Source of the DNA: a virus
Lineage: Duplodnaviria > Caudoviricetes
IMG/VR virus record: IMGVR_UViG_3300014169_000016
Span: 1-32,810 of that record
Length of the DNA: 32,810 nt
Direction: 5' to 3' (one strand)
Positions 12,460 to 30,457 of the stretch are shown here, piece by piece. The position numbers and the translations under genes are program-made. The notes under the pieces were generated by a model that searched no databases, was not told the origin of the DNA, and worked only from the letters and a program-made list of their open reading frames with translations. Every line of letters starts with the position of its first letter. Position 1 is the first letter of the stretch.

Positions 12460-12927
12460 ATGGCTCAAGAATTGATCCCACGTCTCGGTCATAAGGACGT
12501 GTTTACCTATGACGTTATCCCTGAAGAGGATGACGTAAACAAGATCCCCATTCCCAAACAGGCGCGCAACGCGATGGGGCCCCATATCTACAACAAAGAG
12601 CGCAATGATCGCGGCCTCGTGATCGGCTATCAAAAGCTCAACGTGACGGCATCGGACCTCGAAGCGCCGCCAAAAGAAAACACTTTTCCCCCATTTCGAA
12701 CGGTTTACCCCAAGGTTCTGCGTCGCGAAGCCACGAAAGCGGAAATCAAACAGCGCGAAGCTGATTTGACGCTCGAAATGTGGCTCGACCGGGACTTCGA
12801 CCTCATCAAGGAAACGGGGCTTAACCAGCGCAAACGCGCATCCGACTGGCGGAAGTGGATAGATAGGCCCGTCGAAACTACGGTGAAAAGCCGCGAGGAA
12901 GAAGAAGAGATTCTTACGGCTTCCTAA
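12460..12927 (+). CDS. hypothetical protein
   Basis: 155 aa; TAATG coupling to the next gene. Confidence 0.75.
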   Translation: MAQELIPRLGHKDVFTYDVIPEEDDVNKIPIPKQARNAMGPHIYNKERNDRGLVIGYQKLNVTASDLEAPPKENTFPPFRTVYPKVLRREATKAEIKQREADLTLEMWLDRDFDLIKETGLNQRKRASDWRKWIDRPVETTVKSREEEEEILTAS

Positions 12928-13754
12928 TGCCCGGTCCCGTTCTACCGCCAACAAACGCAACGACAACGTTTCCCGGCCTCTTCCCGACCGTCACCGATTT
13001 ACTGAAACGGTCATTGAGGATTATTGGGGTGCTGTCGGGAGGAAGTCAGGGGTCTGAACTATCCGCCGATGACTTCCTCGATGCGATGTTTTCCGGGAAT
13101 CAGTTGCTTGATTCGTGGAACACAGAGCGGCTGATGGTGTGGGGCATTCTGCGGAATGTTTACACGCTGCAATCTGGAGTGCAGACGTACCAACTGGGGC
13201 CGCAGCAGACCGGCACCGCAGCAACGACACTCGACCAGAACCGCTATTCGAAGATCGAACGCTACAGCATCATCAGCTTGACGAACGCCGCACAGCCCCT
13301 GGAATTGCCCATCGAATCCTTGACATACATTGGCTGGCAGGCCATCCCGGTAAAGAACATCCAATCGGCACTTTCGACCAAGGTTTATGACGATCGCGCA
13401 TTCCCGCAGCGGAACCTGAATTTCTATCCTGTGCCAAACACCAACATTCAAGCGGTTGTCTATCCTTGGACTCAGGTGACGCAATTTACAGGATTGACCC
13501 AGCAGCTCGCGTTTCCGCCCGGCTACCTCCGCGCTTTAGCCTACAACATTGCGATGGAGTTGTTCCCTGAATGGCAAGGGAATCCCGCATTGCTGCCGGT
13601 GGTGCAGAAAATCGCTGTCGAGTCGAAAGCGGCTATCAAGTCGCTGAACGTTGTATCGCTCGAAATGGCCTGCGATTCGATGGTTGTCGGTGGTGTGAAG
13701 GGGATGATTTACAACTGGCTGACTGATGAACCGATTAGTAAAGGGTACGTTTAA
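12927..13754 (+). CDS. head-tail adaptor, P22 gp4-like
   Basis: DLLKRSLRIIGV...N.LLDSWN, FYPVP, FPPGYLRALAYNIAMEL; position in the module. Confidence 0.75.
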   Translation: MPGPVLPPTNATTTFPGLFPTVTDLLKRSLRIIGVLSGGSQGSELSADDFLDAMFSGNQLLDSWNTERLMVWGILRNVYTLQSGVQTYQLGPQQTGTAATTLDQNRYSKIERYSIISLTNAAQPLELPIESLTYIGWQAIPVKNIQSALSTKVYDDRAFPQRNLNFYPVPNTNIQAVVYPWTQVTQFTGLTQQLAFPPGYLRALAYNIAMELFPEWQGNPALLPVVQKIAVESKAAIKSLNVVSLEMACDSMVVGGVKGMIYNWLTDEPISKGYV

Positions 13755-13781: not shown

Positions 13782-15347
13782 ATTGCAAGGTTTGGCTTCG
13801 TAGGACCATCCTACACGCTCGCGAACGTTACAAGTGATTGTCAGAGATGCTTGAATTTCTACCCCGAAGCCGACGAATCTGGCATGGGTAAGTCGGCAAT
13901 GGTTCTGAATCCCCGCCCTGGTCTCTCTCTGTTCGCACAAGTCGGCGGAGCAGCGCAAGTTCGCGGCGAGTGGAGCATCAATGCGCGCATGTTCACCGTG
14001 ATTGATGCGACTCTCTATGAGGTTCTTTCAAGCGGCGCGCTAAATGCGATCGGAAGCGTCGGAAACGACGGGAATCTTGTATCAATGGTCGCGAGTCCGC
14101 AACAGCTACTCGTAGCCAGCGTCGGGAATGTGTGGCTGTATCAACTCCAAACGGAAAGCGGCTACGCAAATGCAACCATCGCCCCGACTGGAACGTTGAC
14201 CGCGGGGCAGTTTATCCAAATCCCCGCTTCCACGTTTCCCGGCCCGGTTACGCAAGTTGGATTGTGCGACAGCTTTTTCATCGCGCTCATTGCCTCGACG
14301 GAGCAATTCTTTGTCACGACACAACTAGACGCTACTGATTGGACCGACGAAGGCTCGAAAATCATTTCCACATTCCCTGACAACGTGGTTTCTATGGTTA
14401 TCGACCACCGGGAAATCTGGCTGCTTGGCGCGAAGTCTTCGGAGCCGCAGTATGACTCTGGAAATATCTTCCCATTCGACTCCGTGCCTGGTGGATTTAT
14501 TGAGCAAGGCTGCGCAGCGCAATTTGCCACGGTCCAGCTCGACAACTCGATTTTCTGGATTGGCGCACGGAATGACCAAGGCGGTTTGGTTGGCTGGCGC
14601 GCGAACGGCTATACTCCGCAGCGCATTTCGAATCACGCGGTAGAGAATTCCTGGAACAGTTACCCGACTTGCGCGGACGCGCGGGCATTCTCTTATTCGC
14701 TGGGCGGACATTCCTTCTGGCACATTAACTTCCCCTCGGCACAAGCGACTTGGGTCTATGACGTGGCAACGGGCCTCTGGCACGAACAGAGTTTCTACAA
14801 CACGAACACCGGAACTCACCAAGCAGCGCTCCCGCAATGTCACACCTACCAGTTTGGGAAGCATCTCGTCGGCGACCGGCAAAGCGGGATGATTTACCAG
14901 ATGCAGCTCCCGGTCGTGCAAGGCAATGGCTGGAATTTCGTTACCGACAATGGCGCACTCATCCATCGCATCCGCAAAGCTCCGCACATTTCGACTGAGC
15001 AAGAGTGGATTTATCACAACATGATTCAGATTGACCTCGAAGTAGGAGTCGGGCCGCAACCCCCGCTATATAACGGCGACGGATCGGCGCGAGGGCCGAA
15101 ACTCACGCTCAGTTGGTCTGACGATGGCGGCAAGAATTTCCCACTGGCCTTCGATCTCGATTGCGGACAAGCAGGGAATTACAAGCGGCGCGTGATGAAG
15201 TGGCGGTTGGGGCGTTCACGTGATCGCGTTTATCAGATTCAGTGCAGCGACCCTGTGCCCTGGAGAGTCACTGATGCCTATTTGCAGGCCAGTGGGATGC
15301 AGCGACCGCAAAAGCGCCTAGCGAAGCAATACTCGGAAGTGGCCTGA
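13782..15347 (+). CDS. tail hub / packaged-DNA stabilization protein, P22 gp10-like (inferred ATT start)
   Basis: (I)ARFGFVGPSY...NFYPE, TWVYDVATGLWHE, LSWSDDGG, WRLGRSRDRVY; GGAGGT 6 nt before ATT 13782. Confidence 0.88.
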   Translation: MARFGFVGPSYTLANVTSDCQRCLNFYPEADESGMGKSAMVLNPRPGLSLFAQVGGAAQVRGEWSINARMFTVIDATLYEVLSSGALNAIGSVGNDGNLVSMVASPQQLLVASVGNVWLYQLQTESGYANATIAPTGTLTAGQFIQIPASTFPGPVTQVGLCDSFFIALIASTEQFFVTTQLDATDWTDEGSKIISTFPDNVVSMVIDHREIWLLGAKSSEPQYDSGNIFPFDSVPGGFIEQGCAAQFATVQLDNSIFWIGARNDQGGLVGWRANGYTPQRISNHAVENSWNSYPTCADARAFSYSLGGHSFWHINFPSAQATWVYDVATGLWHEQSFYNTNTGTHQAALPQCHTYQFGKHLVGDRQSGMIYQMQLPVVQGNGWNFVTDNGALIHRIRKAPHISTEQEWIYHNMIQIDLEVGVGPQPPLYNGDGSARGPKLTLSWSDDGGKNFPLAFDLDCGQAGNYKRRVMKWRLGRSRDRVYQIQCSDPVPWRVTDAYLQASGMQRPQKRLAKQYSEVA

Positions 15348-15661
15348 TGGCGAACACCGATCTCAACTTCGCCCCTCCGCCTGTTAGAACACCTTTTTTC
15401 GATGCAGGTCCAGCGCAATCCGAGAGCGGCACACGTTTCGAGGATCGCGGCAAGCCGAAACCGCTTCCCAGGCAGCCTCACCGTGGCTGGATGCAATGGT
15501 TTCAAAGCGTCACCAACAAATTAACCGCTCCAATCGCAGTGGGAACACCGACAGCGAAGACGCCGGGCCAAATAGGCCAGCAAATGCATGATGCCAATTT
15601 CCTCTACACCTTCACGGTAGCGAATACATGGATGAAAACGCCATTTCAACCGCTCTCTTAG
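15347..15661 (+). CDS. hypothetical virion protein
   Basis: TGATG coupling; PPPVRTP...WMQWFQ motif typical of the gene following gp10-like genes. Confidence 0.7.
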   Translation: MANTDLNFAPPPVRTPFFDAGPAQSESGTRFEDRGKPKPLPRQPHRGWMQWFQSVTNKLTAPIAVGTPTAKTPGQIGQQMHDANFLYTFTVANTWMKTPFQPLS

Positions 15662-16318: not shown

Positions 16319-17158
16319 ACGGGCATTGGAACAGGTTTGGGGATTGCTGGAATCGCAAGCGCGGGAATCGGCGCGGCCGGTTCGCTTGGTGCGGGTTCCG
16401 AACAAGCCGGAGCCGCGAAATCCGCTGAGCAGCTTCAGTATCAAGAGCAGCAACAGGCGCTTCAGTTCCAGGAACAAGAGTGGGAGCAGCAGCAACAAAA
16501 TGAAGCTCCTTATCTCCAAGCTGGCGGGAAAGCGATTGGGAACCTCTACAATCTTGCAAATGGCGGGCTGCCAGCATGGAGCGGTTCCTTTCAGGCGCCC
16601 ACGGCGCAGCAAGCCGAGCAGACCCCCGGCTATCAATTCCAGGTTCAACAGGGCGATCAGGCGCTCCAGAACTCTGCGGCGGCGCGCGGCGGTGTATTAT
16701 CGAGCGGCACGGCGAAGAATCTTGAGGCTTACAATCAGGGACTCGCTTCGACGGACTATCAGCAGGTTTTCAACAATTCCCTGACGCAGTACCAGCAAGC
16801 CTACAACGAATATCAGCAGAATCAATTGAATCAGTTCAACCGACTGGCATCCGTGGCGGGAGTGGGGCAAACGGCAGTTGGTCAAACGGGCCAACTCGGG
16901 CAGGCCGCATCGAACAACCTCGGAAATATCTTCCTGACCGGCGGAGCGCAGCAGGGACAAGATTTGCAATTCGGCGCAGCGGCGAATGCGAGCGGTTACG
17001 TTGGCGCAGCAAACGCCGCAGCCGGTGGATTGGGCAGCCTATCGGGCGCTTTGACGCTTCAGCAGATTCTTGCGCAGAATGGTCAGAATCCAGGGCAGGT
17101 TCCCAACTATGACCCCAACTACAACTATATGACGACTACAGGACCGACGCAGGAATAA
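16319..17158 (+). CDS. pilot / DNA-ejection protein (start uncertain: ATT 16313, ACG 16319 or TTG 16337)
   Basis: Gly/Ala-rich N-terminus; TPGYQFQVQQG, NSAAARGG..SSGT; Gln-rich helices. Confidence 0.8.
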   Translation, partial: TGIGTGLGIAGIASAGIGAAGSLGAGSEQAGAAKSAEQLQYQEQQQALQFQEQEWEQQQQNEAPYLQAGGKAIGNLYNLANGGLPAWSGSFQAPTAQQAEQTPGYQFQVQQGDQALQNSAAARGGVLSSGTAKNLEAYNQGLASTDYQQVFNNSLTQYQQAYNEYQQNQLNQFNRLASVAGVGQTAVGQTGQLGQAASNNLGNIFLTGGAQQGQDLQFGAAANASGYVGAANAAAGGLGSLSGALTLQQILAQNGQNPGQVPNYDPNYNYMTTTGPTQE

Positions 17159-17160
17159 CA

Positions 17161-18723
17161 ATGGCTGGCATACCTCTAGCCGCACTTTCTATAAACACGC
17201 AGCAACCTAACCCGCTCGACACGGCGGCAAAGGCCATGAACCTGCAAAATATCATGCAGGAGGGGCAGACTCGCCAGCTCCAGCAGATCGGCCTATCGCA
17301 AGAAAATCAACAGCGCGCATTGCAGTTGAAGGACAAAGAAACGCTGCGCTCCCTCTCTTCGCAGCATGTCCAGAAAGACTCGAATGGGAATGTTACAGGA
17401 TTCGATTTCGATGGGCTAATCAAAGACGCTGCTGGTGCAGGAGTTTCCCCGCAAACACTCAATCAAATGCAGAATCAGTGGGCGGAAGCCATTAAGAATC
17501 TCGCGGGCGCCGATGAAGCGACGCGGAACAATGAAACGGCAAAAAACAAAACGATGTATGAAGCGTTGGAGTCGCTGCGCGCTTTGCCGCAAGCTCAACG
17601 GCCAGCCGCGCTCCAGCAAGCTATTCCAAGCCTGCAAAAACAGGGCGTGGATACATCACAGATTCCGCCGAATGCCGTACTAGACGACGCCTCGCTAACG
17701 CAGTTCGAAGCCAGACTCGGAATGCACGCGCAAATCTTGGCGGACGCAAAAACAGCAGCAGAGACGAATCAAGCCAATCAAAAAGCCAACCTCGACAAGA
17801 TGGAAGCCGCGGAAAAAGGTTCTCCGCTCACCAAAATGGAGAATGACCCGACAATGTTTGCCGGAGACAAACTCCCCGCATCCATGGCCTACCTGCAAAG
17901 CAAGGTCAATGACTCGGACCCGGCCACAGTGGCGCGTGCAACGCGATTGCTGTCCATCGCAAAAGTCTCACAAGCGAATCAGTTGGGAATAGAAGCGTCA
18001 AAGAAGGCAACGGACCAGGCCATCCAGGACGGCGATCCGAATGCCGCAGCGAAGCTTCTCGTGGATGGAACGGTCGCACCCTCGCAAATCATCTCCTCCC
18101 GCAAGCCGGAATTCGCGCAGAAAGCATTTACAGCGGCACAAGCGCTACAGCCCGGATGGGACGCGCGCAAGGCAGAGGCTGACTTCAAGGTTGCCAGCTC
18201 TCCGGCGCAAGTGGCCTTCTTTGGCTCGGCAAAGTCTCTAACGGACAAGGGAGGTACGCTCGACCAGCTCGCCGCAGCAGCTAAAGACATTCCGGGCGGA
18301 CAAATCCCGATATTCAACTCAATTGCCGATGCCATCAATGCTTCGACCGGCAGCGGCCCCATTGCAAAGTATGCCTCTATCGCGCTCGGCTTCGCCGACG
18401 ACTATTCGAAGGTGATGGGCGGGGGGCAGGGAAGCGATACATCGCGCACGCAGGCTCTACAACTCGTCTCATTGAAGCAAAGTCCAGATCAGCGTGCGGC
18501 ATCCATTGAAGGGATTCGAGGAGCCGTCATGTCGCAATTGAATTCGCGCATCGGAAGCAATCCAGTCCTGAAAAAGATGTACGGCGATTCCTTGGATGTG
18601 AATAAAACCAATGCGGAGCATGTTCCAGGCGGAAAAGCGGCCGGATTACAAGAGGGCCAGACTGGCACCGGCTCTGATGGCAAACAATATGTCGTGAAAG
18701 GCGGAGTGTGGCAAGCAAGGTAA
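17161..18723 (+). CDS. putative internal virion/ejection protein
   Basis: 520-aa Ala/Gln-rich helical protein following the pilot gene. Confidence 0.7.
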   Translation: MAGIPLAALSINTQQPNPLDTAAKAMNLQNIMQEGQTRQLQQIGLSQENQQRALQLKDKETLRSLSSQHVQKDSNGNVTGFDFDGLIKDAAGAGVSPQTLNQMQNQWAEAIKNLAGADEATRNNETAKNKTMYEALESLRALPQAQRPAALQQAIPSLQKQGVDTSQIPPNAVLDDASLTQFEARLGMHAQILADAKTAAETNQANQKANLDKMEAAEKGSPLTKMENDPTMFAGDKLPASMAYLQSKVNDSDPATVARATRLLSIAKVSQANQLGIEASKKATDQAIQDGDPNAAAKLLVDGTVAPSQIISSRKPEFAQKAFTAAQALQPGWDARKAEADFKVASSPAQVAFFGSAKSLTDKGGTLDQLAAAAKDIPGGQIPIFNSIADAINASTGSGPIAKYASIALGFADDYSKVMGGGQGSDTSRTQALQLVSLKQSPDQRAASIEGIRGAVMSQLNSRIGSNPVLKKMYGDSLDVNKTNAEHVPGGKAAGLQEGQTGTGSDGKQYVVKGGVWQAR

Positions 18724-20435
18724 CGATTACACCGGATTCTCCTCCGGCGCCGCCGATGAGCGCGAGTGGCGGGCAGGTGACAATCACGCCCGATTCCAAG
18801 CCGCAAGGACCGACGATTGGTCCGCGTGCTATTGAGTATCCATCAACGGTCCCTGGGGCGAAGTATGTGCATGATGCGCTTCAGGAACTTGAAGACTGGG
18901 GACATAATACTCCCCAAGAGAGACAGCAACATCCGTATCAATCCGCTATCGGGGACGCCGCCGCGAACCTAAAGCAACTGCTCGTCGGCGGGCAGGGCGG
19001 AGGGATGGACTTAAAGACTGGCCTTCTGACCAATCCCGTTATCGGCGCAGTCAGTGGTGTACCCGAGGACGAATCGCTGAATGCGGCGCGCGCGGGATTT
19101 CAGGCCGTAAAAGGCGTGGCGAAGAAAGTGTTGAGCAGTCCAGCCACGGCCGTTGACGCCGTCAAAGCGACCGAGGCGGGCCGAGCGCTGACGCAAACCC
19201 TTGCGCCAGAAACTGCGGCTGCGCCCCTGTCTGCAACTCGCGGAGCGGCCACCACGGGTGGGGCAGCTACAACGAGCATAACGAATCAAGATGTTATCAA
19301 GCACGCGTCGGACATGGGAATCAAATTGACTCCCGCTCAGGCTCTCCAAACTTCCGCCGCGAAGTCGGAACAAACATTGGGCGAAGAAGCATTAATCACC
19401 GGCAGCAAAATCAAAGAAGCGGCCGCCGTGGAACGCGGAAAGCTTGCGGATGAAGTCGCGCAATTCCAGGATCGGCTTGATCCTCAGCGCGGCGGTATGT
19501 CGGCGGAATCGGCGGGAGAGCATCTGCAAAACTCGGCCGATGTAGCACGTTCGGTATTGAAAGATAACGTCAATCAGGCGTATGCTGATGTGAAGGCGCA
19601 GCAAGCCGACCTTGCTGGTGACGCACAAGGACCGCTCCAGCAACTGATCCATGATGAAACCTTTGCCCGGCAGCCGCATGCGGCCGTAGAACAGCCAGTT
19701 TTTCAAACTTCCGCAGCAAAAGCTGCGATTAAAGACATTCAGGACATGCTCGCCGATCCGGCGATGCAGGGAAGGCAATCGGTTCAGTCGCTCAGAAATC
19801 TGAGAACGACTCTTTTAGAAAAAGGCAATGACTATGGGGCAAATGCTCTTAGCGATTCTGGTCAGCGTATCTATAGGCTTGCGGCTTCTCGCGTGGATGA
19901 TGCGATCATGGACGCAGCCAAAGGAACTGACTTTGAGCAAACCTTCCGAGATGCTGGACAGCAGAACTCCAAGCTGCAAAGTCTATACAATCAGCGAGGG
20001 GCGGCTCCTTATCGAATCCTCAATACCGAAGACCCCGCCGCAGTTACCAATGGAATCCTCAACAGATCCTCCGTTCAAGAAATAGAAACTCTCAAGGGCG
20101 AAAACTTCGACCTCGGTCCGCTGGCGCGCCAATTAGTCGAAGACATTAAGGATGGCGGTTTCCGTGTCACCAATGGCGGACTCGGTGGCTATCCCGATAC
20201 ATTCCTGCGTTCCCTACTCGGACCGGACGCGACGAAAGAACTCTACATGAAGGCGGAAATCGCGCGTCGGCTCGCCGAAAATTACAATCCTTCCGGCTCT
20301 GGCAAAGTTGTTCTAGGCGCATCGCAAGTGCTTCATCCGGTTGCGGCTGTCGGTGCGCAAGTTGCCCGACTCCGGTCCATGCCGCAAGCCGCCGCTAACT
20401 ACCTCCCGAAATCATTGGCAGACCTCGCAAAATGA
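18708..20435 (+). CDS. putative internal virion/ejection protein
   Basis: 575-aa Ala-rich helical protein; NPSGSG motif near the C-terminus. Confidence 0.7.
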   Translation: MASKVTITPDSPPAPPMSASGGQVTITPDSKPQGPTIGPRAIEYPSTVPGAKYVHDALQELEDWGHNTPQERQQHPYQSAIGDAAANLKQLLVGGQGGGMDLKTGLLTNPVIGAVSGVPEDESLNAARAGFQAVKGVAKKVLSSPATAVDAVKATEAGRALTQTLAPETAAAPLSATRGAATTGGAATTSITNQDVIKHASDMGIKLTPAQALQTSAAKSEQTLGEEALITGSKIKEAAAVERGKLADEVAQFQDRLDPQRGGMSAESAGEHLQNSADVARSVLKDNVNQAYADVKAQQADLAGDAQGPLQQLIHDETFARQPHAAVEQPVFQTSAAKAAIKDIQDMLADPAMQGRQSVQSLRNLRTTLLEKGNDYGANALSDSGQRIYRLAASRVDDAIMDAAKGTDFEQTFRDAGQQNSKLQSLYNQRGAAPYRILNTEDPAAVTNGILNRSSVQEIETLKGENFDLGPLARQLVEDIKDGGFRVTNGGLGGYPDTFLRSLLGPDATKELYMKAEIARRLAENYNPSGSGKVVLGASQVLHPVAAVGAQVARLRSMPQAAANYLPKSLADLAK

Positions 20436-21823
20436 AAAAACTAATAGTTGCAGTGATTCTTTGCACGCTTTTCGGGGCAAATGGCGAAGCCCAGGTAGCA
20501 GTTAGTCTTGCACCCGTCGCCCGGCAGCAATTCTTCAACTCCACAGGCACGCCCCTAGCCGGAGGCTGCGTATCCTTCTTTGCTGCGGGCACCACCACAC
20601 AACAAGCAGCCTATTCGGACATAACCGGCCTCTACCAGCTTCAAAACCCGCTCACGCTCGACAATTCCGGCATGGCGACGATCTATCTGGCCAATCAATC
20701 CTATAAAATCCAGGTGAACGCCGCGCCGGGCTCCGGTTCGTGCGCCTCAAACAACCTTGGCGCTCAGCAGTGGGTTCAAGACAATGTTTCTTCCTACCAG
20801 GTCATTTCAAGCATTTCGAATCTGATTTTCGCGGGAGTAACTGTCGATCCGTCAGGCTCAGCCGGAGAAATCGGCTACCGTTCGGACATTCCGTGTTTCC
20901 GCGTCTTCACAACGCTGTGGGATTGCGTCGCAACGCTGAATGGAGTCCAGACGATTGCCAACAAAACGCTAACCGCACCGATTATCAACAATGCATCCGG
21001 GGCAACACTCATTTCACCTTCCATTGCCGGCTTAACAATCGGCGGCGTTGCCGTAGCGACCGGAAATCCAACCAACTTCGTCAATTTCACGAATGGCGCA
21101 GCCGGAACAACGCTGAATTCGCTCGCCAAGCTGGTTGTCAATGGCTCCGGCGTGAATGCCGTCAATACCGTAACGACGGATACCGGCGGCGTCGTCGGAA
21201 TAACGATTGGCGGAGGTGGAACGTCGGGAATCGCCATTATCCAGCGCACCGGCCAAGTGCTTTGCACGTTCGATGGGAGCACGACCGCCGACGATTATGT
21301 CCAGATCAGCACGACCGTCGCTGGAGACTGTCACGATGGCGGCGTTGCAACTTACCCGACTACGGGAAATCAAGTCATCGGGCGGGCTCTGACGACGAAT
21401 ACCGGCGTTGGCTCCTATCTAATTGACCTTTTCCCCCCAGAGATCAGGTCGGGAGGCTCGATAAGCACGGTTGAATCGACCTGGCCTATTGTGATGACGC
21501 AAGGCTTGAACGTCGGCGCTCCATACACTTTCGCGCAAGTCGTTCTCGCACAGCCGCATATGCTGACGCGCTTCGTCATTTCGATTGGCACCGCTCTTTC
21601 CGGTTGCTCCACGTCTCCGGTCGTGCAGTTCACGGACATTACTTCCTCGACTGTACTGACTTCCACGACGCTTACGAATAGCGCAGCCGGAACGCTCTTT
21701 GATTCCGGCGTTCTCAGCGTTTCAATGACCTCCGGCCATACGTTCGGAATTATTCTCTCGACGGCGGCGGTAGGCTGTACCGGATTCGGAACAAGCAGCA
21801 CGGCAACGGCGGTGTTTCATTGA
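20432..21823 (+). CDS. tailspike/fibre-like protein with head-binding-type domain and signal peptide
   Basis: MKKLIVAVILCTLFGANGEA|Q; QQFFNSTGTPLAGG...AGTTT...YSD...NPLTLD..G. Confidence 0.8.
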   Translation: MKKLIVAVILCTLFGANGEAQVAVSLAPVARQQFFNSTGTPLAGGCVSFFAAGTTTQQAAYSDITGLYQLQNPLTLDNSGMATIYLANQSYKIQVNAAPGSGSCASNNLGAQQWVQDNVSSYQVISSISNLIFAGVTVDPSGSAGEIGYRSDIPCFRVFTTLWDCVATLNGVQTIANKTLTAPIINNASGATLISPSIAGLTIGGVAVATGNPTNFVNFTNGAAGTTLNSLAKLVVNGSGVNAVNTVTTDTGGVVGITIGGGGTSGIAIIQRTGQVLCTFDGSTTADDYVQISTTVAGDCHDGGVATYPTTGNQVIGRALTTNTGVGSYLIDLFPPEIRSGGSISTVESTWPIVMTQGLNVGAPYTFAQVVLAQPHMLTRFVISIGTALSGCSTSPVVQFTDITSSTVLTSTTLTNSAAGTLFDSGVLSVSMTSGHTFGIILSTAAVGCTGFGTSSTATAVFH

Positions 21824-23799
21824 TTAAGAAACTTGCGATTCTCTTTTTGCTAGCCACTGCGCCACTTTGCGCGCAAGGCTATCGCTTCGATTCTCAGGTG
21901 TCGCAAGAGTTCTCCACGACACTGATTACCGGCGCAACGAATGTCTTGACCGTTCCCGCTGGCCCGATCATCGCATTTTGCAACTTCCCCGCGAATGCCG
22001 TGCCCTGCACGAACAAAGCGACGACCTACACATCCGTCACGCTCGGCACTTCCTGCCCCACTTCGACGCAGATCACGTTGACAGGTTCAAATACCTGCGT
22101 AGCTTCGCCGGATTCACAAGACAATTGGGGCGTGTGGGTTCCAAGCGGCCAATACTCCTACACCATTACAATTGGGGGCGTCAACTTCGGCCCTTATGTT
22201 GTTAATTTCGGCGTGCCGAGTGGCACGCTTCTAACAAATCTGTTCGTCACTTCTCTAAATGGCACGGTTTATGCCGATCAGGAAGCGGGAGCGACTGCCG
22301 ACGTAAAAATAAATGCGTGCATCACCGCAGCAATCGCCAGCGGCGCGCACATCTGCAATGCGACGGGACTCTACGGCACGCAAACCATTGCCGCGCAAAT
22401 CAATGTCGGCGATTCTTCGCAGGACCAAGTAGCCCTGATTCTTCCGCCTTACGGAACTTGGGGCGTCACCATCACAAACGGCACCAGTTGCGCCATCAAA
22501 CAGTACGGCAACTCCACGATCTCCGGTCTGGCAACCGGGGGCAGCAACAAGCTTCTGATTCAACCTTCGAGCGGATCCACCAGCGTATCCGCATACTACT
22601 GCCAAGATACCTCCCCAACGGGAGGCGGCTCCTATATCTCTGCGGATGGGTTTGAGATTTATAATCCGGCTGTCGCGGCAGCGACAAGCGGCTCGGCGAT
22701 GAAGATTTTCGCCAACTTCGACAATGCCAACTATGGTCCGCATCTTATCGTGGCCGACTACATGGAAATTGGCATTCAGGTCGTTGGCGCTTGCTGCTCG
22801 GCTAATTTCTGGGGCGTGGAATCGAGCGGGGGATTCGGAGCTGGCGCGCAACCTCTCAGTGTGAATACAAACGCTGGGGCGAATAGCGGGCTCCAAGTGA
22901 ATTTCTTTGGCGGCAGTTTCGACCATCCAGGCACGGGCAAAAACAACATCCTCGTGCAGGGCACCGGAACCACAGCTCCAATCACCATCGCATTCCACGG
23001 CACCTACATGGAAGGCTACAACGGCGCGAGCGCTTCCACGGCAATGCTGGAATTGCAAAGCGTTCAGAACGCTACGATCACCGGATTGACCGCGTGCGCG
23101 CTGTCCTCTGGCTCGACGCAACCCGCAATTCAGATTGATGATTCGCCTGCCGTAGCGTCAAGCATCAACATCACCGGCCTTGCCGAGCCAACAAATTCGC
23201 CGTGCCTCGGCTCTACCAAGGGTATCGTGGACAACATTAATTCCGTGTCCATCGTTCCCGATGCCGCAAATAACATCTCTTCCTACCATACGGGAAATTC
23301 GAACTTTAACGGCATTGGACTTTCCGCGCCGATCAAGAATACCGCTGGCACGGCCACGATGGGCTTGACGCTCAAGACGGGCTCCGGGGCCGGAAATTAT
23401 ACAGGGGCCAACACCGCGGCATTTGCCAGCGTTGACACGACGAATCTCTGCACGACGATCACGGTCCCAACGGGCTGGAAGCTGAAAGTAGATGCCAGCG
23501 CGGTTATTGAATCTGCGACCGCAGCCGTCGCGCAAAGTTTCGCGCTTGTGGATGCTGGGGTTACCTGCACAAGCGGCGGCGTCACGGCGCTAACCGGGAC
23601 GGAGCGAGACATCACCCCGCCGGCGCTTGGCGCATTCGATGTGAATCTTCATACGCAATATATTTTCACCGGAGACGGGGCGGCACATTCATTCAGCTTG
23701 GTAGCGAAAACTGCGAATGCGGCCGATTCGTGGGGCATACAGAACACGAGCGCGACTTCGGCACCAAGCATGACGTTCACATTAATGCCAAGCAACTGA
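21820..23799 (+). CDS. tailspike-like protein (probable beta-helix) with signal peptide
   Basis: MIKKLAILFLLATAPLCA|Q; KINACITA helix cap followed by a beta-rich region. Confidence 0.75.
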   Translation: MIKKLAILFLLATAPLCAQGYRFDSQVSQEFSTTLITGATNVLTVPAGPIIAFCNFPANAVPCTNKATTYTSVTLGTSCPTSTQITLTGSNTCVASPDSQDNWGVWVPSGQYSYTITIGGVNFGPYVVNFGVPSGTLLTNLFVTSLNGTVYADQEAGATADVKINACITAAIASGAHICNATGLYGTQTIAAQINVGDSSQDQVALILPPYGTWGVTITNGTSCAIKQYGNSTISGLATGGSNKLLIQPSSGSTSVSAYYCQDTSPTGGGSYISADGFEIYNPAVAAATSGSAMKIFANFDNANYGPHLIVADYMEIGIQVVGACCSANFWGVESSGGFGAGAQPLSVNTNAGANSGLQVNFFGGSFDHPGTGKNNILVQGTGTTAPITIAFHGTYMEGYNGASASTAMLELQSVQNATITGLTACALSSGSTQPAIQIDDSPAVASSINITGLAEPTNSPCLGSTKGIVDNINSVSIVPDAANNISSYHTGNSNFNGIGLSAPIKNTAGTATMGLTLKTGSGAGNYTGANTAAFASVDTTNLCTTITVPTGWKLKVDASAVIESATAAVAQSFALVDAGVTCTSGGVTALTGTERDITPPALGAFDVNLHTQYIFTGDGAAHSFSLVAKTANAADSWGIQNTSATSAPSMTFTLMPSN

Positions 23800-23806
23800 G
23801 GAACCT

Positions 23807-26077
23807 ATGAAAACCAGATGGATAGCGGCATTCGCCGCGATTGCGCTGTGCTGTGGACGAATCGAGGCTCAAGGCCCGGTCATCAATGACCCCGCTAACG
23901 GCCTGACGCAGACTTTCTCCAGTGGTGCAGCGATCACTCCCGGCCAGATCGTCAAGCTGAATGGGACCGGGCAAGTCATTCCCGTCACCACTTCCGACAC
24001 TGCTTCGCCCATTGGAATTGCGGCGACTGGCACAAATAGCGCCTACCAGACCATCATTGTGACCATCGGCGGGTCACGAACAATCCTGGTCGATGGCGCT
24101 TGCATAATCGGGCAAAAGGTTCAAATCAGCGCAATTACCGCAGGATATGGAAATTGTTCATCCTCCCCGACGCTTGGCACGGTAGGGCTTGCGCTGGCAG
24201 CGGTTAGCGCCGCAGGGCAGGTATCAGTGCAGCTTCAAATCGGCGGCAGCAGCTCTAATGGCGGTGGCACGGCGACGAACGGCGTAGGCGGTTCTGCGAA
24301 CCCGGCGTCTCCCGCAAAAGCTTTCTATCTCTATCCAAGCTGCTTATCCGCTAATACCGGCCAGTGTTTTCAAAGCCCGGGAAACACGCAGCAAGTCGCA
24401 GACTGTGGCTGGACAGTAGGTCCTCCATCGGTAGTCACCTGTACGGGCAGTCACTTTACTTCAGCGGATGTAGGCAAACGAGCCTTCGGCTACAAGACTT
24501 GCGATGCGTCCGTCAATCTCGCGGCGAATAGCAATAACCTGCCCATGACGACGACGACTCCGTTGACCATTGCGACCTTTAACAGCGCAACGTCCGTCAC
24601 CTTGTCTGGCGCTGCGGTTAACGCCGTAACTATCAGCGGTTCATTTCCGAAAGGCGGCTGTTTTATATGGGGGAATCCCGACGATTCGGGAGCGGTTCTC
24701 ATGGATGCCGCCATGCAAGCATCCCTTGTGTGTCCGAAAGCGGAACTGGGTAATGCGAACTATATGTTTACGACGTACCACTTCGTCGCAAACCCTCCTG
24801 CTTGCGCTAATCTTGGAACTAGTGGCGGCATAAACGCCGGTAACATCGTATACTCTTCCGGCTTCACGCTAACAGGGGCGGGTGCTGGAACTACTAACTT
24901 TTTTCTAACTCCCGGATTCCCGGAAACGGGTACTTGCACAAATGGCATGAGCGGGAAAGCTCTTTGGGTCATTCCACTGCAAGGCGAATGGGCGGATTTG
25001 CAAATAACAGGTGGCGGAAATTTCGTCGCTACGGGTATTTCGACAAACGGTTGCAACATTGTTGAAGCGGACGGACCGGCATCTCTAAGGAATTTCGTAG
25101 CTACCAACTTCGGCGAGCGCGGTTCCAGCAACACGCCTACAAACGGTGTCGGAGCCTATCTATGGACACAATTAAATCACGTAAATTTATCGGCATTCGG
25201 AACGCAGGACGTTGCGACTAACGTTTCTTCTTCTATAACTGCGATCCAGTTATGGGTAGAGAACGTCGGCACGACGGGTATAAGCCTTGGAACGTTGACG
25301 GATTATTACTCTCAGACGGTATCGCAATTCAGCAAGTATAATTTCATCTGCTACGACTGTACGGTAGACGTAGAAAACCTTGTTGACCCGAATACGGTTC
25401 CCTTCCTTTTCGTAAACAAGGGGTTAAACGCCAAATGGTATCGCGGTGGCTTAAGCACCGTCGCGGGAACGTACAATTCCAATAACTTTGTTGGCTACTA
25501 CTGCGAACAGAATGGATGCACGCTAGACGTTCAGGATGCGTTTTTCGATCTAAGCCAACCGTCAACAGGTACGGGGTATATCGCCGTTCAGTGTGCTAAC
25601 ACATGCACGAATCACTTTGAAAATTCCATATTCAAGGGAACGTCTGGCGGATTCGGATACAAGGATGTAGCCGGAAGCGCGTTGTACGACATGGGAGGAA
25701 ATACATTCGGCGCGGTATCTATCGCCGGTTCCGTCTACGGAAGCGCGTCGATAACCGGCACGACTCTTGTAACGGGAAACGTCGTACTCACTTCCGGATG
25801 GGGAACGGGCGCAGCGGCGTCTGCATTTCTTGGCAATTCCTTAGCAGCTCAGTGGACAACAACGATTGGAACGGGGCCGGGAGCGGGAGCGATAACAACG
25901 GTGACTTTCCCGACACCTTTTCTAGTAGCTCCCACGTGCAGCGCTCAAGTTGTTGGGGGAACTTCCACAACGGTGCTTCCTGTGGAATGCAGCGCAACCA
26001 CGACGGCAGCCACGCTCACCTACGTAGGGACGTTCGTAAGTGGGACGGTTATCACCCGGTTGACTGCGAGTAACTAA
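23807..26077 (+). CDS. spike/fibre-like protein with DUF2190-like N-domain and signal peptide
   Basis: MKTRWIAAFAAIALCCGRIEA|Q; AITPGQIVKL...PIGIA; C-terminal TVTFPTPFLVAPTC fibre-type domain. Confidence 0.75.
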   Translation: MKTRWIAAFAAIALCCGRIEAQGPVINDPANGLTQTFSSGAAITPGQIVKLNGTGQVIPVTTSDTASPIGIAATGTNSAYQTIIVTIGGSRTILVDGACIIGQKVQISAITAGYGNCSSSPTLGTVGLALAAVSAAGQVSVQLQIGGSSSNGGGTATNGVGGSANPASPAKAFYLYPSCLSANTGQCFQSPGNTQQVADCGWTVGPPSVVTCTGSHFTSADVGKRAFGYKTCDASVNLAANSNNLPMTTTTPLTIATFNSATSVTLSGAAVNAVTISGSFPKGGCFIWGNPDDSGAVLMDAAMQASLVCPKAELGNANYMFTTYHFVANPPACANLGTSGGINAGNIVYSSGFTLTGAGAGTTNFFLTPGFPETGTCTNGMSGKALWVIPLQGEWADLQITGGGNFVATGISTNGCNIVEADGPASLRNFVATNFGERGSSNTPTNGVGAYLWTQLNHVNLSAFGTQDVATNVSSSITAIQLWVENVGTTGISLGTLTDYYSQTVSQFSKYNFICYDCTVDVENLVDPNTVPFLFVNKGLNAKWYRGGLSTVAGTYNSNNFVGYYCEQNGCTLDVQDAFFDLSQPSTGTGYIAVQCANTCTNHFENSIFKGTSGGFGYKDVAGSALYDMGGNTFGAVSIAGSVYGSASITGTTLVTGNVVLTSGWGTGAAASAFLGNSLAAQWTTTIGTGPGAGAITTVTFPTPFLVAPTCSAQVVGGTSTTVLPVECSATTTAATLTYVGTFVSGTVITRLTASN

Positions 26078-26278
26078 TGGGAAGTCTGGCGTGGACAGAA
26101 AGCCAATTTGCAGAGTCTCGGGAAGAAGCGTCTCCTTCACAAGATTCGTAACAAGCAGTCCAGACGCACAAAGTACGAAAATCACGTCGTGTCCAAACAG
26201 ATTGTGGACTACGCTGCGAAACATCGTGACGCGGCGGCAGCCGAGCGGTGCGGACCTGCTCCCGCAAAGGAAAATTAA
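26078..26278 (+). pseudogene. TnpB fragment (relic)
   Basis: Start-less frame: NLQSLGKKRLLHKIRNKQSRRTKYENHVVSKQIVDYAAKH. Confidence 0.6.
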
Positions 26279-27307
26279 GTGAAAAAACTCTTCGCCTTCG
26301 CCGTTCTATTCCTGCTGGCCTTGCCGCTCGCCGCTCAGACGCCGCAAGCCATCCAATGCGCGAAGCTATCTCCTGCGGGTGCCGGAGCGTACCCAAGCCC
26401 GCAGGCCACTTACACGATGGGCTTCACATCGCAGGCGAATAATACGTGGGTACTGGCCGTCACGCCTGCGCCGACATTGACAGAGAACGGCAACTCGTGG
26501 GGAACCAACATCGCTCCGGGTCTCTTCATAGCTCCAACGCTCGGGGCCGCTGAATCCATCCAATTAGCCTATAACGGCACAACTTACGCCTCGGCTGTCC
26601 TCTGCGAGTATCCCGGACAACTTGTGGTGGATGCGGTAGGACAGGTTGCAACAGGCACGGCTCAATTGGCGCAATCCAACACGGTCGCGGCCACGGCAGG
26701 CGACATCGTAATCAACTACGGCTGGCAATCCACATCAAACTATCTGAGCTTCACACTTACTACTGGGTTCGCGGTTGAGCCGCCGACTACTAGTCTGTAC
26801 ATCGCTGACGAACTCGCAATGGCGAGCGGCACCGTTTCTGCCGGAGCAAATTGGTCTGGGGCTGTGAACTTCACGGAAGGAATCGTGGCGCTGAAGCAGT
26901 CAGTGCAGAACGTGACGCTGACTTTCGGGCCTGCGAAGACCATCAACGGCGACGTGTGCGCCAATATGGTGACTTTCGATGACGGCTCATCTATCTTCAG
27001 CGGGCAGCCTGCGCCGGAAAGCGTCATGCAGCTTCAGGGAAACGCATGGGTGAATATCGGGACTCCGGTCATCCAGCCTAACGGGCAAATCGTTGGCAGC
27101 GTGAGCCTCAACCCGAATTACACGGACGCAAATGGTCTCATCGAATTGCAACTGCTCGTGCAAACGATGCTGAATCTGCCTCCGGCGTCGGCTGTGCCTA
27201 TCGCACCATCCACATTGACGAACGGCCAGACCGGGCTTTGCGGCAGCTTCATCGTGTACAGGGCAACGGGGACGCCGAAGTACGAGACCTTTGGATTTAC
27301 GCCGTAG
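26279..27307 (+). CDS. beta-rich secreted-type/virion protein with signal peptide
   Basis: MKKLFAFAVLFLLALPLAA|Q; AAGGA RBS; GTG start. Confidence 0.8.
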   Translation: MKKLFAFAVLFLLALPLAAQTPQAIQCAKLSPAGAGAYPSPQATYTMGFTSQANNTWVLAVTPAPTLTENGNSWGTNIAPGLFIAPTLGAAESIQLAYNGTTYASAVLCEYPGQLVVDAVGQVATGTAQLAQSNTVAATAGDIVINYGWQSTSNYLSFTLTTGFAVEPPTTSLYIADELAMASGTVSAGANWSGAVNFTEGIVALKQSVQNVTLTFGPAKTINGDVCANMVTFDDGSSIFSGQPAPESVMQLQGNAWVNIGTPVIQPNGQIVGSVSLNPNYTDANGLIELQLLVQTMLNLPPASAVPIAPSTLTNGQTGLCGSFIVYRATGTPKYETFGFTP

Positions 27308-27336
27308 TGTAATGGATTACACCAGCCCCATTCCAA

Positions 27337-27746: not shown

Positions 27747-27854
27747 GCTTGCGGGTGCGGACGAATCTCCGAAAGGGGGAGCGTTGAAAAATTCGGCAAT
27801 TGGCGCTTCACACGTCCGGCCCGCAAGACAAATATCCAGGACTCCAAACCACAA

Positions 27855-28079: not shown

Positions 28080-28321
28080 ACGTTCTCGGCGCGGCGCTGG
28101 AAAAAGCCTTTGCAACGCAGACAGGTGGGCGATCTGGCCAGATGCGGCGCGCTGAAATACCACAAGAATGGCGTGGAATCGGCGTCCTTTATGCAAAGGA
28201 TGCAGGAGAGACGGTTGAGTTCCGCGTGCTTTATGAAAGTCACATCCCGCAAGAAATTAAAGACTTTGTAGCGCAGCTTTTTGGATGTGGCGCTATCGAA
28301 TGGAACGTGGCACCCAAATGA
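28076..28321 (+). CDS. hypothetical protein
   Basis: ATGA overlaps at both ends. Confidence 0.65.
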   Translation: MNVLGAALEKAFATQTGGRSGQMRRAEIPQEWRGIGVLYAKDAGETVEFRVLYESHIPQEIKDFVAQLFGCGAIEWNVAPK

Positions 28322-28788
28322 ACCTCCTGCTTGTCCGCGGCCCCCAAGATCCCAATTCAACACCTGGCAGCCTGGCGGTGGATGGAATCTTCCAATGCCG
28401 CACCCTCGAACTACCAGTCAGGGATGGTCTACCCGGTTCAGCCATCCCAGCGGGGAAGTATCCAATTGTTCTGGCGCCATCGCCTAAGTTTATGGCCAGT
28501 ATGGACCCGTGGGTAAAGAGCTACGCTTCGCAGATGCCGCACATTCAGCCGATTCCCGGACGCTCGCTCATCATGCTGCACTGGGGGAATGTGCCGGAAA
28601 ATACGGATGGATGCGTGCTTGTGGGCCAGACGCGGCCGGCACCGGACGCGCTCGGCAACTCCCGCCCTGCCTTCGCAGCCCTTTTCATCGCCATACAAGC
28701 AGGAGTAAAGAACGGTGGATGCTGGATTGAGATTCAGGACGCGCAGAACAATTCAGAAGACGTTCAGGAGGCGGTGACAGCGACATGA
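28318..28788 (+). CDS. putative endolysin, DUF5675-family peptidase
   Basis: CRTLELP, AIPAGKY, IMLHWGN..ENTDGCVLVG. Confidence 0.82.
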   Translation: MNLLLVRGPQDPNSTPGSLAVDGIFQCRTLELPVRDGLPGSAIPAGKYPIVLAPSPKFMASMDPWVKSYASQMPHIQPIPGRSLIMLHWGNVPENTDGCVLVGQTRPAPDALGNSRPAFAALFIAIQAGVKNGGCWIEIQDAQNNSEDVQEAVTAT

Positions 28789-29018
28789 GCGACACTCAGA
28801 AGTCTCTTTGGACCGGCGCGCTGAAATCCGCAGTAGCGGCCGCTTGCGGGCTTGTGACCGGACTGCCCGCCATTGACCCTGAGCGTTTCAATGTCACCAC
28901 CTGGCAGGGAGCCTTGCGCATTCTGGCGATGATTGGATGGGTTGTGGTGATCGCGGAAGCACGTTTCTGGGATCAGTGGGCGCACAGCGGGAATGTGCCG
29001 CCTGACGCAAAGGGTTAA
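28785..29018 (+). CDS. holin-like membrane protein
   Basis: 77 aa with two hydrophobic segments; directly after the endolysin. Confidence 0.6.
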   Translation: MSDTQKSLWTGALKSAVAAACGLVTGLPAIDPERFNVTTWQGALRILAMIGWVVVIAEARFWDQWAHSGNVPPDAKG

Positions 29019-29021
29019 ATT

Positions 29022-29726
29022 ATAGCAAGCAGGGTAATAGCAGAAACGGCGGGAGCATCATCCGCCAGTGACCGTCTCTGGCTGGCCATAAAAGCCTCCT
29101 GCCTCATCGTGGTATCGGTGTTCGCCTGCATCTTTTTGCATGACCTGCACAAGTTAGCGGGGAAAGCGACCCTCACCGTTGAAAACGTCGATCGGGCTGC
29201 AATCGCAGCTGGCGCAGCAGCAGGGAATGTTGAGAAAGCGAGTCGAGCATGGCAGGACGCAAGCGAAGCGCAAACCAAGCTGGTAGCAAAAACCTTCATA
29301 AATGTAAACCGGGCTGTGGTGTCTGCGAATGTATTTCTGCGCTCCACCAACAAACAGTTGAACTCGCAGCTCTTGCCAGCCTTGTCGAACGCTGTAAATC
29401 AGCAAAACGAAGCTCTGCTCATAAACCAGCACCGGCTGGGCGACGATCTGTCACAAATCAGTCAAGCTACAACATCCCTGCAAGGGACGATCGCAGACGG
29501 GCAGGTAATTCTTACTGACCCGGCCATCAAGCAGAGCCTTGAAAACCTCGCCCTGGCCGCGCAGAATACGGCAGAAGGCACCAAGCAGTTATCTCTAACT
29601 GCCGAGGATACGAGACAAGTAGCCGACAAATTCCGGGAAACATATCTCAAGCCACAGAAGTTCGCCTGGGAACTGCTTAAATCCCTTGTAGGGATGGGTG
29701 GTAGCTTTGCACAAATGATTAAATAA
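29022..29726 (+). CDS. membrane-anchored coiled-coil protein (spanin-like); start uncertain
   Basis: Frame open from 29019; TM segment LWLAIKASCLIVVSVFACIFL begins upstream of GTG 29109; long helical region follows. Confidence 0.6.
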   Translation: MASRVIAETAGASSASDRLWLAIKASCLIVVSVFACIFLHDLHKLAGKATLTVENVDRAAIAAGAAAGNVEKASRAWQDASEAQTKLVAKTFINVNRAVVSANVFLRSTNKQLNSQLLPALSNAVNQQNEALLINQHRLGDDLSQISQATTSLQGTIADGQVILTDPAIKQSLENLALAAQNTAEGTKQLSLTAEDTRQVADKFRETYLKPQKFAWELLKSLVGMGGSFAQMIK

Positions 29727-29738
29727 AGGAGAAATAAA

Positions 29739-30194
29739 GTGAGTCTATTCAGTGGGTTCAAGTCCTTTTTTGAAAAAGTAGGGTCCGTGCTCGAAAAGTT
29801 CTTCGGTTCATCCTCAACAGAACAGAAGATCCAAGGGGCATTGACTGTCGTAGGGGCGGCTATTGTCACGATTACCAGCCTCGCAGCGGGGCCAGCAGCC
29901 TCCGCAGCGGTCTCCGGCATCATCAAGATGGTCCAGACGGACTACGCGACGTTCTGCGCAGTCGTACAGCAAGGTACTCCCGTACCAGGCTCTACAGCCG
30001 CTACTGCGGCCACTACGGCCCTCAATAGCCTGAAAGCCAATCTGACAGCCCTCCTGAGCGATGCAGGGGTCAAAAACTCTGCCAATGCGACCAAGATCGC
30101 CGATGAAGTAACCACGATAGTCAATGAACTAGAAGCTATCGAAGCCGCGATTGTGCCTGCTCCGGTTGCGCCAGCAGCCCCAGTAGCTTCGTAA
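29739..30194 (+). CDS. hypothetical membrane-associated protein
   Basis: AAGGAG RBS; amphipathic N-terminus plus a hydrophobic segment. Confidence 0.75.
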   Translation: MSLFSGFKSFFEKVGSVLEKFFGSSSTEQKIQGALTVVGAAIVTITSLAAGPAASAAVSGIIKMVQTDYATFCAVVQQGTPVPGSTAATAATTALNSLKANLTALLSDAGVKNSANATKIADEVTTIVNELEAIEAAIVPAPVAPAAPVAS

Positions 30195-30222
30195 CGGCCC
30201 CAGCTCCAAATCTTCTCACTGA

Positions 30223-30451: not shown

Positions 30452-30457
30452 TCGGAT

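What the first reader, a model, noticed from the sequence alone, without database searches (positions are those of the whole stretch)
20432..27307. Virion spike/fibre proteins carry Sec signal peptides and even cysteine counts: a candidate extracytoplasmic virion-maturation system
Seen: four tail-region proteins (20432, 21820, 23807, 26279) plus the post-capsid protein (11412) each begin with a basic N-region, a hydrophobic core and an Ala|Gln cleavage site (GEA|Q, LCA|Q, IEA|Q, LAA|Q, ISA|Q). My manual Cys counts for the mature regions are 8, 14, 20, 4 and 6, all even and mostly local pairs. Portal, coat, gp4-like, gp10-like and ejection proteins have no signal. Established: tailed-phage structural proteins normally fold and assemble in the cytoplasm; an even-Cys bias marks exported disulfide-bonded proteins; P22 tailspikes can attach to finished heads in vitro; an N-terminal Gln can cyclise to pyroglutamate. 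Inference: these receptor-binding/decoration proteins are exported, oxidatively folded in the periplasm and loaded onto particles only at or after inner-membrane lysis. Alternatively they could act as secreted receptor blockers.
Basis: partly seen in the sequence, partly recalled or inferred. Interest (0 to 1): 0.92.

Follow-up and report, generated by a model that had tools for sequence, protein, structure and literature searches.

The report
Phage spikes folded in the periplasm
An uncultured wetland phage puts predicted bacterial export signals and paired cysteines on its tailspike, head-fibre and capsid-accessory proteins but not on its core particle proteins, so these outer parts likely fold in the host periplasm and would join the particle only at lysis, a two-compartment assembly route we did not find described for tailed phages.

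Summary
Observation confirmed. In a P22-like podophage, probably of Acidobacteriota, five late proteins have Sec/SPI-type N-termini ending Ala|Gln, and 6, 8, 14, 20 and 4 mature cysteines. Both features are conserved. All 120 listed homologues of the post-coat protein have an even count, with seven cysteine pairs gained and lost together; 62 of 66 signal-bearing tailspike homologues are even. Signal-less relatives of the same domains have no cysteines or random parity. Core proteins lack signals (3 of 265 heuristic hits). The 20432 protein carries a P22/Pam1-type tailspike head-binding domain and a capsid-cement fold; 23807 starts with a cement domain; 11412 directly follows the coat gene in 72 of 75 loci. 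No signal-less receptor-binding candidate remains in the window. Export with disulfide folding is very likely (about 0.9); loading onto particles at lysis is inferred (about 0.7 overall). Support from isolates: 11 signal-like Cellulophaga phage proteins are annotated as structural by MS/MS. Counter-precedent: WceF is exported, has the same head domain and is not a virion protein. SignalP was not run. The scan noted this pattern before on other genomes.

The parts
11412..12254 (+). Post-coat capsid-accessory (decoration/spike-like) protein; signal 11412-11477, ISA|Q; 6 mature Cys, predicted pairs 37-41, 145-166, 223-231
   Evidence: model pLDDT 90.6; N-terminal barrel like phage capsid/tail barrels, Z 9.3 rmsd 3.1 over 81 residues to 9in6_M, C-terminal domain weakly like Pa223 capsid spike, Z 5.5
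20432..21823 (+). Tailspike-type protein; signal 20432-20491, GEA|Q; head-binding domain (about 20492-20806), beta-tulip cement-fold domain (about 21059-21445), variable C-terminal domain; 8 mature Cys
   Evidence: PDB profile hits Pan3 9vyg E 1e-12 and Pam1 7eeq E 2e-10; P22 1lkt Z 8.9 rmsd 2.0 over 81; HFTV1 8qsy Z 12.8, phi29 gp8.5 base Z 11.0
21820..23799 (+). Fibre/spike-like protein; signal 21820-21873, LCA|Q; conserved N-terminal module, probable beta-helix passenger; 14 mature Cys
   Evidence: four signal-bearing hits to its N-terminal module (two are one gene); Atlas feature hits to viral beta-helix/tailspike clusters at 0.82-0.87, lead only
23807..26077 (+). Head-fibre-like protein; signal 23807-23869, IEA|Q; N-terminal cement domain (about 23870-24259) plus swappable passenger; 20 mature Cys
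   Evidence: Pfam Phage_cement_2 E 5.9e-5, 23.8 bits, cut-off 24; Atlas TM 0.80 to a cement cluster; tulip HMM hit 1.7e-7; passenger exchanged at about 24268 in P0245 and in a near-identical strain
26279..27307 (+). Signal-bearing protein of unknown fold at the end of the cassette; signal 26279-26335, LAA|Q; 4 mature Cys
   Evidence: no Pfam/PHROG hit and no homologue among sequences held
6585..8771 (+). P22-like portal, no signal
   Evidence: PF16510 E 4e-137
8772..9047 (+). Small protein between portal and scaffold; signal-less with 1 Cys here, signal-bearing with 2 Cys in six relatives
9156..10100 (+). Scaffolding protein, no signal
   Evidence: phrog_8865 E 9e-24
10192..11394 (+). P22-like coat protein, no signal
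   Evidence: PF11651 E 3.5e-25
12927..13754 (+). gp4/adaptor-like protein (label from position), no signal
   Evidence: phrog_12985, unknown function; synteny
13782..15347 (+). gp10-like tail hub, probable ATT start, no signal; presumed docking site of the tailspike
   Evidence: phrog_578 head closure Hc3 E 7e-86
15347..15661 (+). Small conserved post-hub protein (needle/plug position), no signal
   Evidence: weak phrog_17312 tail hit E 0.009
16337..20435 (+). Three ejection-protein genes, no signal, no Cys
   Evidence: phrog_598 DNA ejection for the first; the other two by position
28285..30194 (+). Probable lysis cassette: DUF5675 protein, holin-like and spanin-like genes (labels inferred)
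   Evidence: PF18925; hydrophobic profiles; an M15 endolysin holds the same place in L085

Best explanation
This P22-like phage likely builds its DNA-filled head and tail core in the cytoplasm, while its five signal-bearing outer proteins are predicted to cross the inner membrane by Sec, lose the signal, fold with disulfide bonds in the periplasm, and would dock on the finished particles when lysis mixes the two compartments. Shown: signals, cysteine pairing pattern, docking-type domains, signal-less core. Inferred: SPI cleavage, oxidation by host DsbA-like/VKOR proteins, optional pyroglutamate formation, trimerisation, docking of 20432 on the gp10-like hub and of 23807 and 11412 on the capsid. 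Only parts that can be added last are exported; parts needed to package and seal DNA are not. The probable gain is access to disulfide-stapled, host-derived sugar-binding and sugar-cutting modules that cannot fold in the cytoplasm.
For: Signal conserved in 116 of 120 listed 11412 homologues and 66 of 102 proteins passing the 20432 N-domain filter, Gln at +1 in all of these. Even Cys in 120 of 120 and 62 of 66, against 13 of 26 Cys-containing signal-less relatives (Fisher p 6e-6, uncorrected for kinship). Seven Cys pairs co-occur perfectly or nearly so. Four signal-less 11412 homologues, also directly behind a coat gene, have zero Cys; the 8772 family shows the same switch, 6 signal-bearing with 2 Cys and 3 signal-less with 0-1. 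Fibre-like genes behind a signal-bearing tailspike carry signals in 14 of 14 (3 are the window's own), against 4 of 28 behind tailspikes classed signal-less. Docking domains. 11412 follows the coat gene in 72 of 75 loci. No signal-less spike candidate lies between ejection and lysis genes. Sf6 tailspike is the last part added (PMC9728967 passages). Eleven signal-like Cellulophaga phage proteins are annotated structural by MS/MS. Four Acidobacteriota genomes hold VKOR 4 of 4, DsbA-like 4 of 4, glutaminyl cyclase 3 of 4.
Against: No virion of this phage has been seen. WceF is a Tat-exported bacterial enzyme with a P22-like head domain and no virion role (PMC7949094 Results), so the domain does not prove docking. 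The Cellulophaga proteins are not homologous to these and are mostly Cys-poor, and MS/MS could detect co-purifying protein. Odd counts exist among signal-bearing homologues: 4 of 66, 3 of 23 once L002 and L040 are reclassed, and P0245. Four of 12 homologues of 23807 are Cys-rich with no signal as called (P0235, P0237, P0241, P0246); truncation could not be checked. The signal-less 11412 homologues form one clade, a single contrast. 26279 has no virion-type evidence. The host is inferred, not shown.
Confidence: 0.7

Rival explanations
1. The proteins are exported but are not virion parts. They are domesticated spikes that act free in the periplasm or outside the cell, like WceF, as capsule/EPS-cutting release factors, receptor blockers or decoys.
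For: WceF precedent. Porphyromonas prophages carry Q-rule signal proteins read by the authors as host-envelope modifiers (PMC10367356 passages). 26279 has no docking domain.
Against: The phage would be left with no receptor-binding protein. Two different docking folds are kept. 11412 holds a fixed post-coat slot across coats 25-66% identical, and signal-less relatives hold it too. Conserved anchor plus swapped passenger is typical of receptor-binding proteins. MS/MS-annotated precedents. It may still hold for 26279 alone.
Confidence: 0.17
2. The N-termini are uncleaved membrane anchors, or are bypassed by a downstream start, so the proteins stay on the cytoplasmic side and join particles there; disulfides form only after release by air oxidation.
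For: Signals were predicted by heuristic only. Two homologues are called with starts just before the Gln (P0018, P0174). Four 23807 homologues lack a signal as called.
Against: Canonical small-residue -1/-3 sites with invariant +1 Gln, while the signal sequence itself varies freely. No conserved Met near the cleavage site. Cys pairs appear only where a signal is present. Native P22 tailspike has no disulfides (PMC3357383 passages).
Confidence: 0.07
3. Particles leave without full lysis (periplasmic passage or vesicles) and are dressed on the way out, as in filamentous phages.
For: Would give ordered contact with periplasmic parts; filamentous phages use Sec-exported coat proteins (recalled, not from a call).
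Against: A lysis-type cassette follows the spike genes in the window and an endolysin does so in L085. No extrusion machinery was seen in the window.
Confidence: 0.04

Closest known systems
P22/Sf6 and cyanopodophage Pam1/Pan3 tailspikes (N-terminal head-binding domain)
   Same: Homologous head-binding domain, same gene slot after the ejection genes, P22-like portal and coat; added last in Sf6 (PMC9728967, passages).
   Different: Those are cytoplasmic and signal-less; native P22 tailspike has no disulfides (PMC3357383, passages). Here a cleavable signal and paired Cys are present, and a cement-fold domain follows the head-binding domain.
Beta-tulip capsid cement/decoration proteins and head fibres (phi29 gp8.5, HFTV1, TW1, lambda gpD; Pfam PF09956)
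   Same: Fold of the 23807 N-terminal domain and the 20432 middle domain.
   Different: Signal-bearing, with Cys pairs, fused to long variable passengers.
Cellulophaga phages phi18:3 gp085-087, phi10:1 gp091-094, phi19:1 gp101-104
   Same: Tailed phages with consecutive signal-like Ala/Gly/Ser|Gln proteins (one has Lys at +1) that GenBank marks structural by MS/MS.
   Different: Bacteroidota hosts, no detectable homology, few cysteines; I found no paper remarking on the signals, and could not read the source paper.
Pantoea stewartii WceF
   Same: Exported trimer with a P22-like head domain (PMC7949094, Results part 1 and passages; also a fold hit, Z 5.7).
   Different: Chromosomal EPS-cluster enzyme, Tat not Sec, no virion.
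Inovirus pIII/pVIII (recalled)
   Same: Phage structural proteins that use Sec and periplasmic disulfide formation.
   Different: ssDNA filament extruded at the membrane; no pre-built capsid, no lysis.
Bacteroidetes Q-rule (PMC5837995, passages)
   Same: Gln directly after the SPI site.
   Different: Described for host proteins of Bacteroidetes; the paper does not mention Acidobacteria or phages.

Membership tests
P22-like podophage virion module | P22-type portal and coat | tested here: met
   PF16510, PF11651
P22-like podophage virion module | gp10-like hub and ejection genes in P22 order | tested here: met
   phrog_578, phrog_598; synteny
P22/Pam1-type tailspike | N-terminal head-binding domain | tested here: met
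   20432: E 1e-12 to 9vyg, 2e-10 to 7eeq; Z 8.9 to 1lkt
P22/Pam1-type tailspike | Beta-helix depolymerase body behind the head domain | tested here: not met
   20432 model has a beta-tulip and a beta-sandwich, not a beta-helix; it is tailspike-anchored, not a classical tailspike
P22/Pam1-type tailspike | Cytoplasmic synthesis without signal peptide or native disulfides | tested here: not met
P22/Pam1-type tailspike | Trimer bound to the tail hub in the virion | not testable with these tools
   needs particles
Phage cement / head-fibre base (PF09956) | Beta-tulip domain | tested here: met
   20432 middle domain Z 11-12.8; 23807 N-terminus TM 0.80
Phage cement / head-fibre base (PF09956) | Pfam gathering score | tested here: inconclusive
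   23.8 bits against cut-off 24
Capsid decoration protein (11412) | Gene adjacent to the coat gene | tested here: met
   72 of 75 loci
Capsid decoration protein (11412) | Fold of a known decoration family | tested here: inconclusive
   domain-level matches only, best Z 9.3; one full-length uncharacterised phage match, TM 0.60
Sec/SPI substrate | Basic n-region, hydrophobic core, small residues at -1/-3, no lipobox, no twin-Arg | tested here: met
   heuristic and motif scans; SignalP not available
Sec/SPI substrate | Cleavage and periplasmic location in vivo | not testable with these tools
   needs MS or reporter fusion
WceF-like exported EPS enzyme | Tat signal and location in a chromosomal EPS cluster | tested here: not met
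   no twin-Arg motif; genes lie in a phage late operon

The most novel reading that the evidence does not exclude
A broad class of tailed phages and phage-derived elements of Acidobacteriota (and, independently, Bacteroidota) splits morphogenesis between two compartments: bald, non-infectious particles are made in the cytoplasm, and all spikes, head fibres and capsid decoration are stockpiled as disulfide-bonded, pyroglutamate-capped proteins in the periplasm and snap on at lysis. The route is switched gene by gene in evolution by gaining a signal peptide, after which cysteine pairs accumulate.
Probability: 0.55. Interest if true: 0.94.

Novelty: categorically new. Interest (0 to 1): 0.85.

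Why it matters
Tailed phages are taught to assemble wholly in the cytoplasm. If true, a common soil and wetland clade finishes its virion with periplasm-folded parts, making infectivity depend on host Sec and Dsb pathways and on lysis. It would explain how phages recruit secreted host lectins and glycanases as receptor-binding domains, and warn that signal-bearing phage genes filed as auxiliary or moron genes may be structural. It is testable now in cultured Cellulophaga phages. The parts belong to known families; the route is what is new. The novelty claim rests on ten full-text searches of an open-access library; subscription papers were not searched.

Tried and rejected
Complex prediction of three head-binding domains with the gp10-like hub gave no verdict (score 0.26, mark 0.32, controls not folded). 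The profile search of protein representatives never ran. Cys-Cys distances could not be read because model coordinates are not returned. No isolate in the annotated phage collection matches 11412; six records match only the 20432 head domain. PDB sequence searches for 11412, 21820 and 23807 found nothing significant; Foldseek on 11412 had no PDB hit at E<=0.001. The head-binding HMM did not hit 21820, so it is not shown to be a paralogue. Among 401 Acidobacteriota genomes only G001 held a full-length 11412 homologue; other phyla were not searched with that profile. Promoter and terminator scans of 18000-30500 were at or below chance. Contigs from two RNA libraries cover parts of the late region, including 11412 and 20432, but contigs cannot show transcription or level. 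Lipoprotein and Tat readings were rejected. The coat tree is the quick version, midpoint-rooted, so the direction of signal gain or loss is not settled. Supplementary files were not opened; virion proteomics tables for the Cellulophaga phages could bear directly on the precedent.
Full report
Setting. The window is a 32.8-kb virus record with a P22-like late operon: terminase, portal (PF16510), scaffold, coat (PF11651), gp4-like adaptor (label from position), gp10-like hub (phrog_578), three ejection genes (phrog_598 for the first), four long Gly/Ser/Thr/Ala-rich genes and a probable lysis cassette. Near-identical DNA occurs in wetland metagenomes.

Observation. The five proteins have the stated N-termini and 6, 8, 14, 20 and 4 cysteines after the predicted cut. 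None has a lipobox or twin-arginine motif. SignalP was not available; I used a heuristic, which also flagged the holin-like gene 28785. Pairs are not all local: 26279 has gaps of 82 and 94.

Conservation of the signals. For 11412, 281 homologues were found and the best 120 listed. Of these 116 pass the signal test with Gln at +1; the other four are two fragments, one short call and one long signal that the test missed. For 20432, 102 of 113 hits passed a loose N-domain filter: 66 signal-bearing (query included; a few share only other modules) and 36 signal-less. In related viral loci, core proteins gave 3 heuristic positives in 265 sequences, none with +1 Gln, against 60 of 65 for 11412 homologues and 15 of 16 for tailspikes.

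Cysteine pairing. All 120 listed 11412 homologues are even. In the 114-row alignment (six fragments or long calls left out), seven column pairs co-occur perfectly or nearly so, for example 39/72 in 29 of 29 and 201/209 in 70 of 70; shuffled columns give a mean of 57 and at most 78 even rows, and the patterns change at least 21 times on the tree. Signal-bearing 20432 homologues are even in 62 of 66, signal-less ones in 13 of 26 that have any Cys (p 6e-6, not corrected for kinship). Core proteins are even in 105 of 191. Exceptions: 20 of 21 complete signal-class tailspikes are even, but L002 (5 Cys) and L040 (11) visibly carry signals that the test missed, so 20 of 23. Among 12 homologues of 23807, seven of eight with a signal-like start are even, P0245 is odd, and four are Cys-rich without a signal as called.

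Natural controls. Four homologues of 11412 have no signal, start at the residue matching the mature N-terminus, lie directly behind a coat gene and have no cysteine; they form one clade on a quick coat tree. The small gene 8772 shows the reverse: signal-less here, signal-bearing with two Cys in 6 of 9 family members. Behind signal-bearing tailspikes, 14 of 14 fibre-like genes carry signals (three are the window's own); behind those classed signal-less, 4 of 28 (one is L002's). Signal and cysteine pairs therefore travel together in three unrelated families.

What the proteins are. A profile of 20432 matches tailspike head-binding domains of Pan3 (E 1e-12) and Pam1 (E 2e-10). Its model (pLDDT 77.8) matches P22 1lkt (Z 8.9, rmsd 2.0, 81 residues) at the N-terminus and beta-tulip capsid proteins in the middle (HFTV1 Z 12.8, phi29 gp8.5 base Z 11.0). 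23807 starts with a cement domain, and its passenger is exchanged right behind that domain in P0245 and in a near-identical strain. 11412 folds confidently (pLDDT 90.6) into a barrel seen in capsid and tail proteins plus a domain weakly like the Pa223 capsid spike, and follows the coat gene in 72 of 75 loci that hold both. 21820 has only lead-level beta-helix/tailspike similarity; 26279 has none. Between the ejection and lysis genes there is no signal-less spike candidate.

Host. A 39-kb relative is binned in a Bryobacterales MAG but is a phage-only contig. One tailspike homologue is named from Candidatus Angelobacter, with a longest contig of 154 kb. The tulip module occurs on long chromosomal contigs of three genomes of that phylum, in signal-bearing Cys-rich giant proteins beside a small terminase-portal-adaptor cluster. 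Only that phylum was searched with these profiles, so the host is likely, not shown. The four genomes tested encode VKOR (4 of 4), DsbA-like proteins (4 of 4) and glutaminyl cyclase (3 of 4, one weak).

Mechanism. Shown: signals, pairing pattern, docking-type domains, signal-less core. Inferred: Sec export, SPI cleavage, oxidation, trimer formation in the periplasm, and docking when holin and spanins open the envelope. In Sf6 the tailspike is the last factor added and binds the hub through its head domain (PMC9728967, passages); that decoration proteins bind mature capsids is recalled. I put export with disulfides near 0.9 and the full model at 0.7.

Precedents and rivals. Of 23 proteins that GenBank marks structural by experimental MS/MS and that I translated, 11 have signal-like N-termini by eye (phi18:3 3 of 12, phi10:1 4 of 6, phi19:1 4 of 5). 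They are not homologous to the window's proteins and are mostly Cys-poor. The source paper was not held; that the samples were purified virions is recalled. Against the virion reading, WceF is a Tat-exported trimer with a P22-like head domain that works on host exopolysaccharide (PMC7949094, passages and first part of Results). Porphyromonas prophages carry Q-rule signal proteins of unknown function (PMC10367356, passages). Soil prophage CAZymes have signals in 5% of cases, after structural genes were excluded (PMC13507307, passages). Native P22 tailspike has no disulfides (PMC3357383, passages).

Novelty. Ten library searches (listings and abstract starts seen) gave no paper describing Sec-exported virion parts of a tailed phage; subscription literature was not searched. 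The scan has noted the same pattern on other genomes, which is not independent evidence, and had no note on this genome or on 11412 look-alikes. New here are the head-binding and cement domain assignments, pairwise cysteine covariation and three signal-less control families. Verdict: real, conserved, very probably exported; virion loading likely but untested. Interest 0.85.

Noticed in passing
G190:C2 about 1637000-1658000 (L180, L181); G180:C1 about 1169000-1194000 (L182, L183); G159:C1 about 120000-145000 (L184, L185): A syntenic small phage-like cluster in three Acidobacteriota chromosomes: two giant signal-bearing Cys-rich fibre-like genes, terminase, HipA-like kinase plus DUF3037, HK97-type portal, head-tail adaptor and further conserved genes, flanked by host genes. 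Possibly a gene-transfer-agent-like element with exported fibres.
   Followed up: partly
window 13770-13851: The gp10-like hub gene likely starts at ATT 13782 behind GGAGGT; the frame reads ARFGFVG, like the homologue consensus.
   Followed up: partly
window 15628-16297: An acyl-carrier-protein-like gene and a GNAT acetyltransferase lie directly before the first ejection gene; the ACP-like gene recurs in L017, L068 and L071. Possible acylation of an ejection protein.
   Followed up: no
window 8772-9047: Small protein between portal and scaffold whose family switches between signal-less and signal-bearing, two-Cys forms.
   Followed up: partly
window 24268: A near-identical strain and P0245 keep the cement domain of 23807 but continue with a different passenger from this point.
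   Followed up: partly
window 1104-2315: IS605/TnpB-like gene inserted before the terminase region; two LuxR-type HTH genes at 288 and 562.
   Followed up: no
L003 6416-19970: A phage with different flanking genes carries five consecutive signal-bearing, Cys-rich proteins up to 2165 aa and shares the tulip module.
   Followed up: no
L048, L073, L080, L082: Two or three tandem gp4/adaptor-like genes instead of one.
   Followed up: no
KC821618 and KC821607 (L189, L190): Cellulophaga phages of two families share an 82-83% identical signal-bearing N-terminal module on MS/MS-annotated structural proteins.
   Followed up: partly
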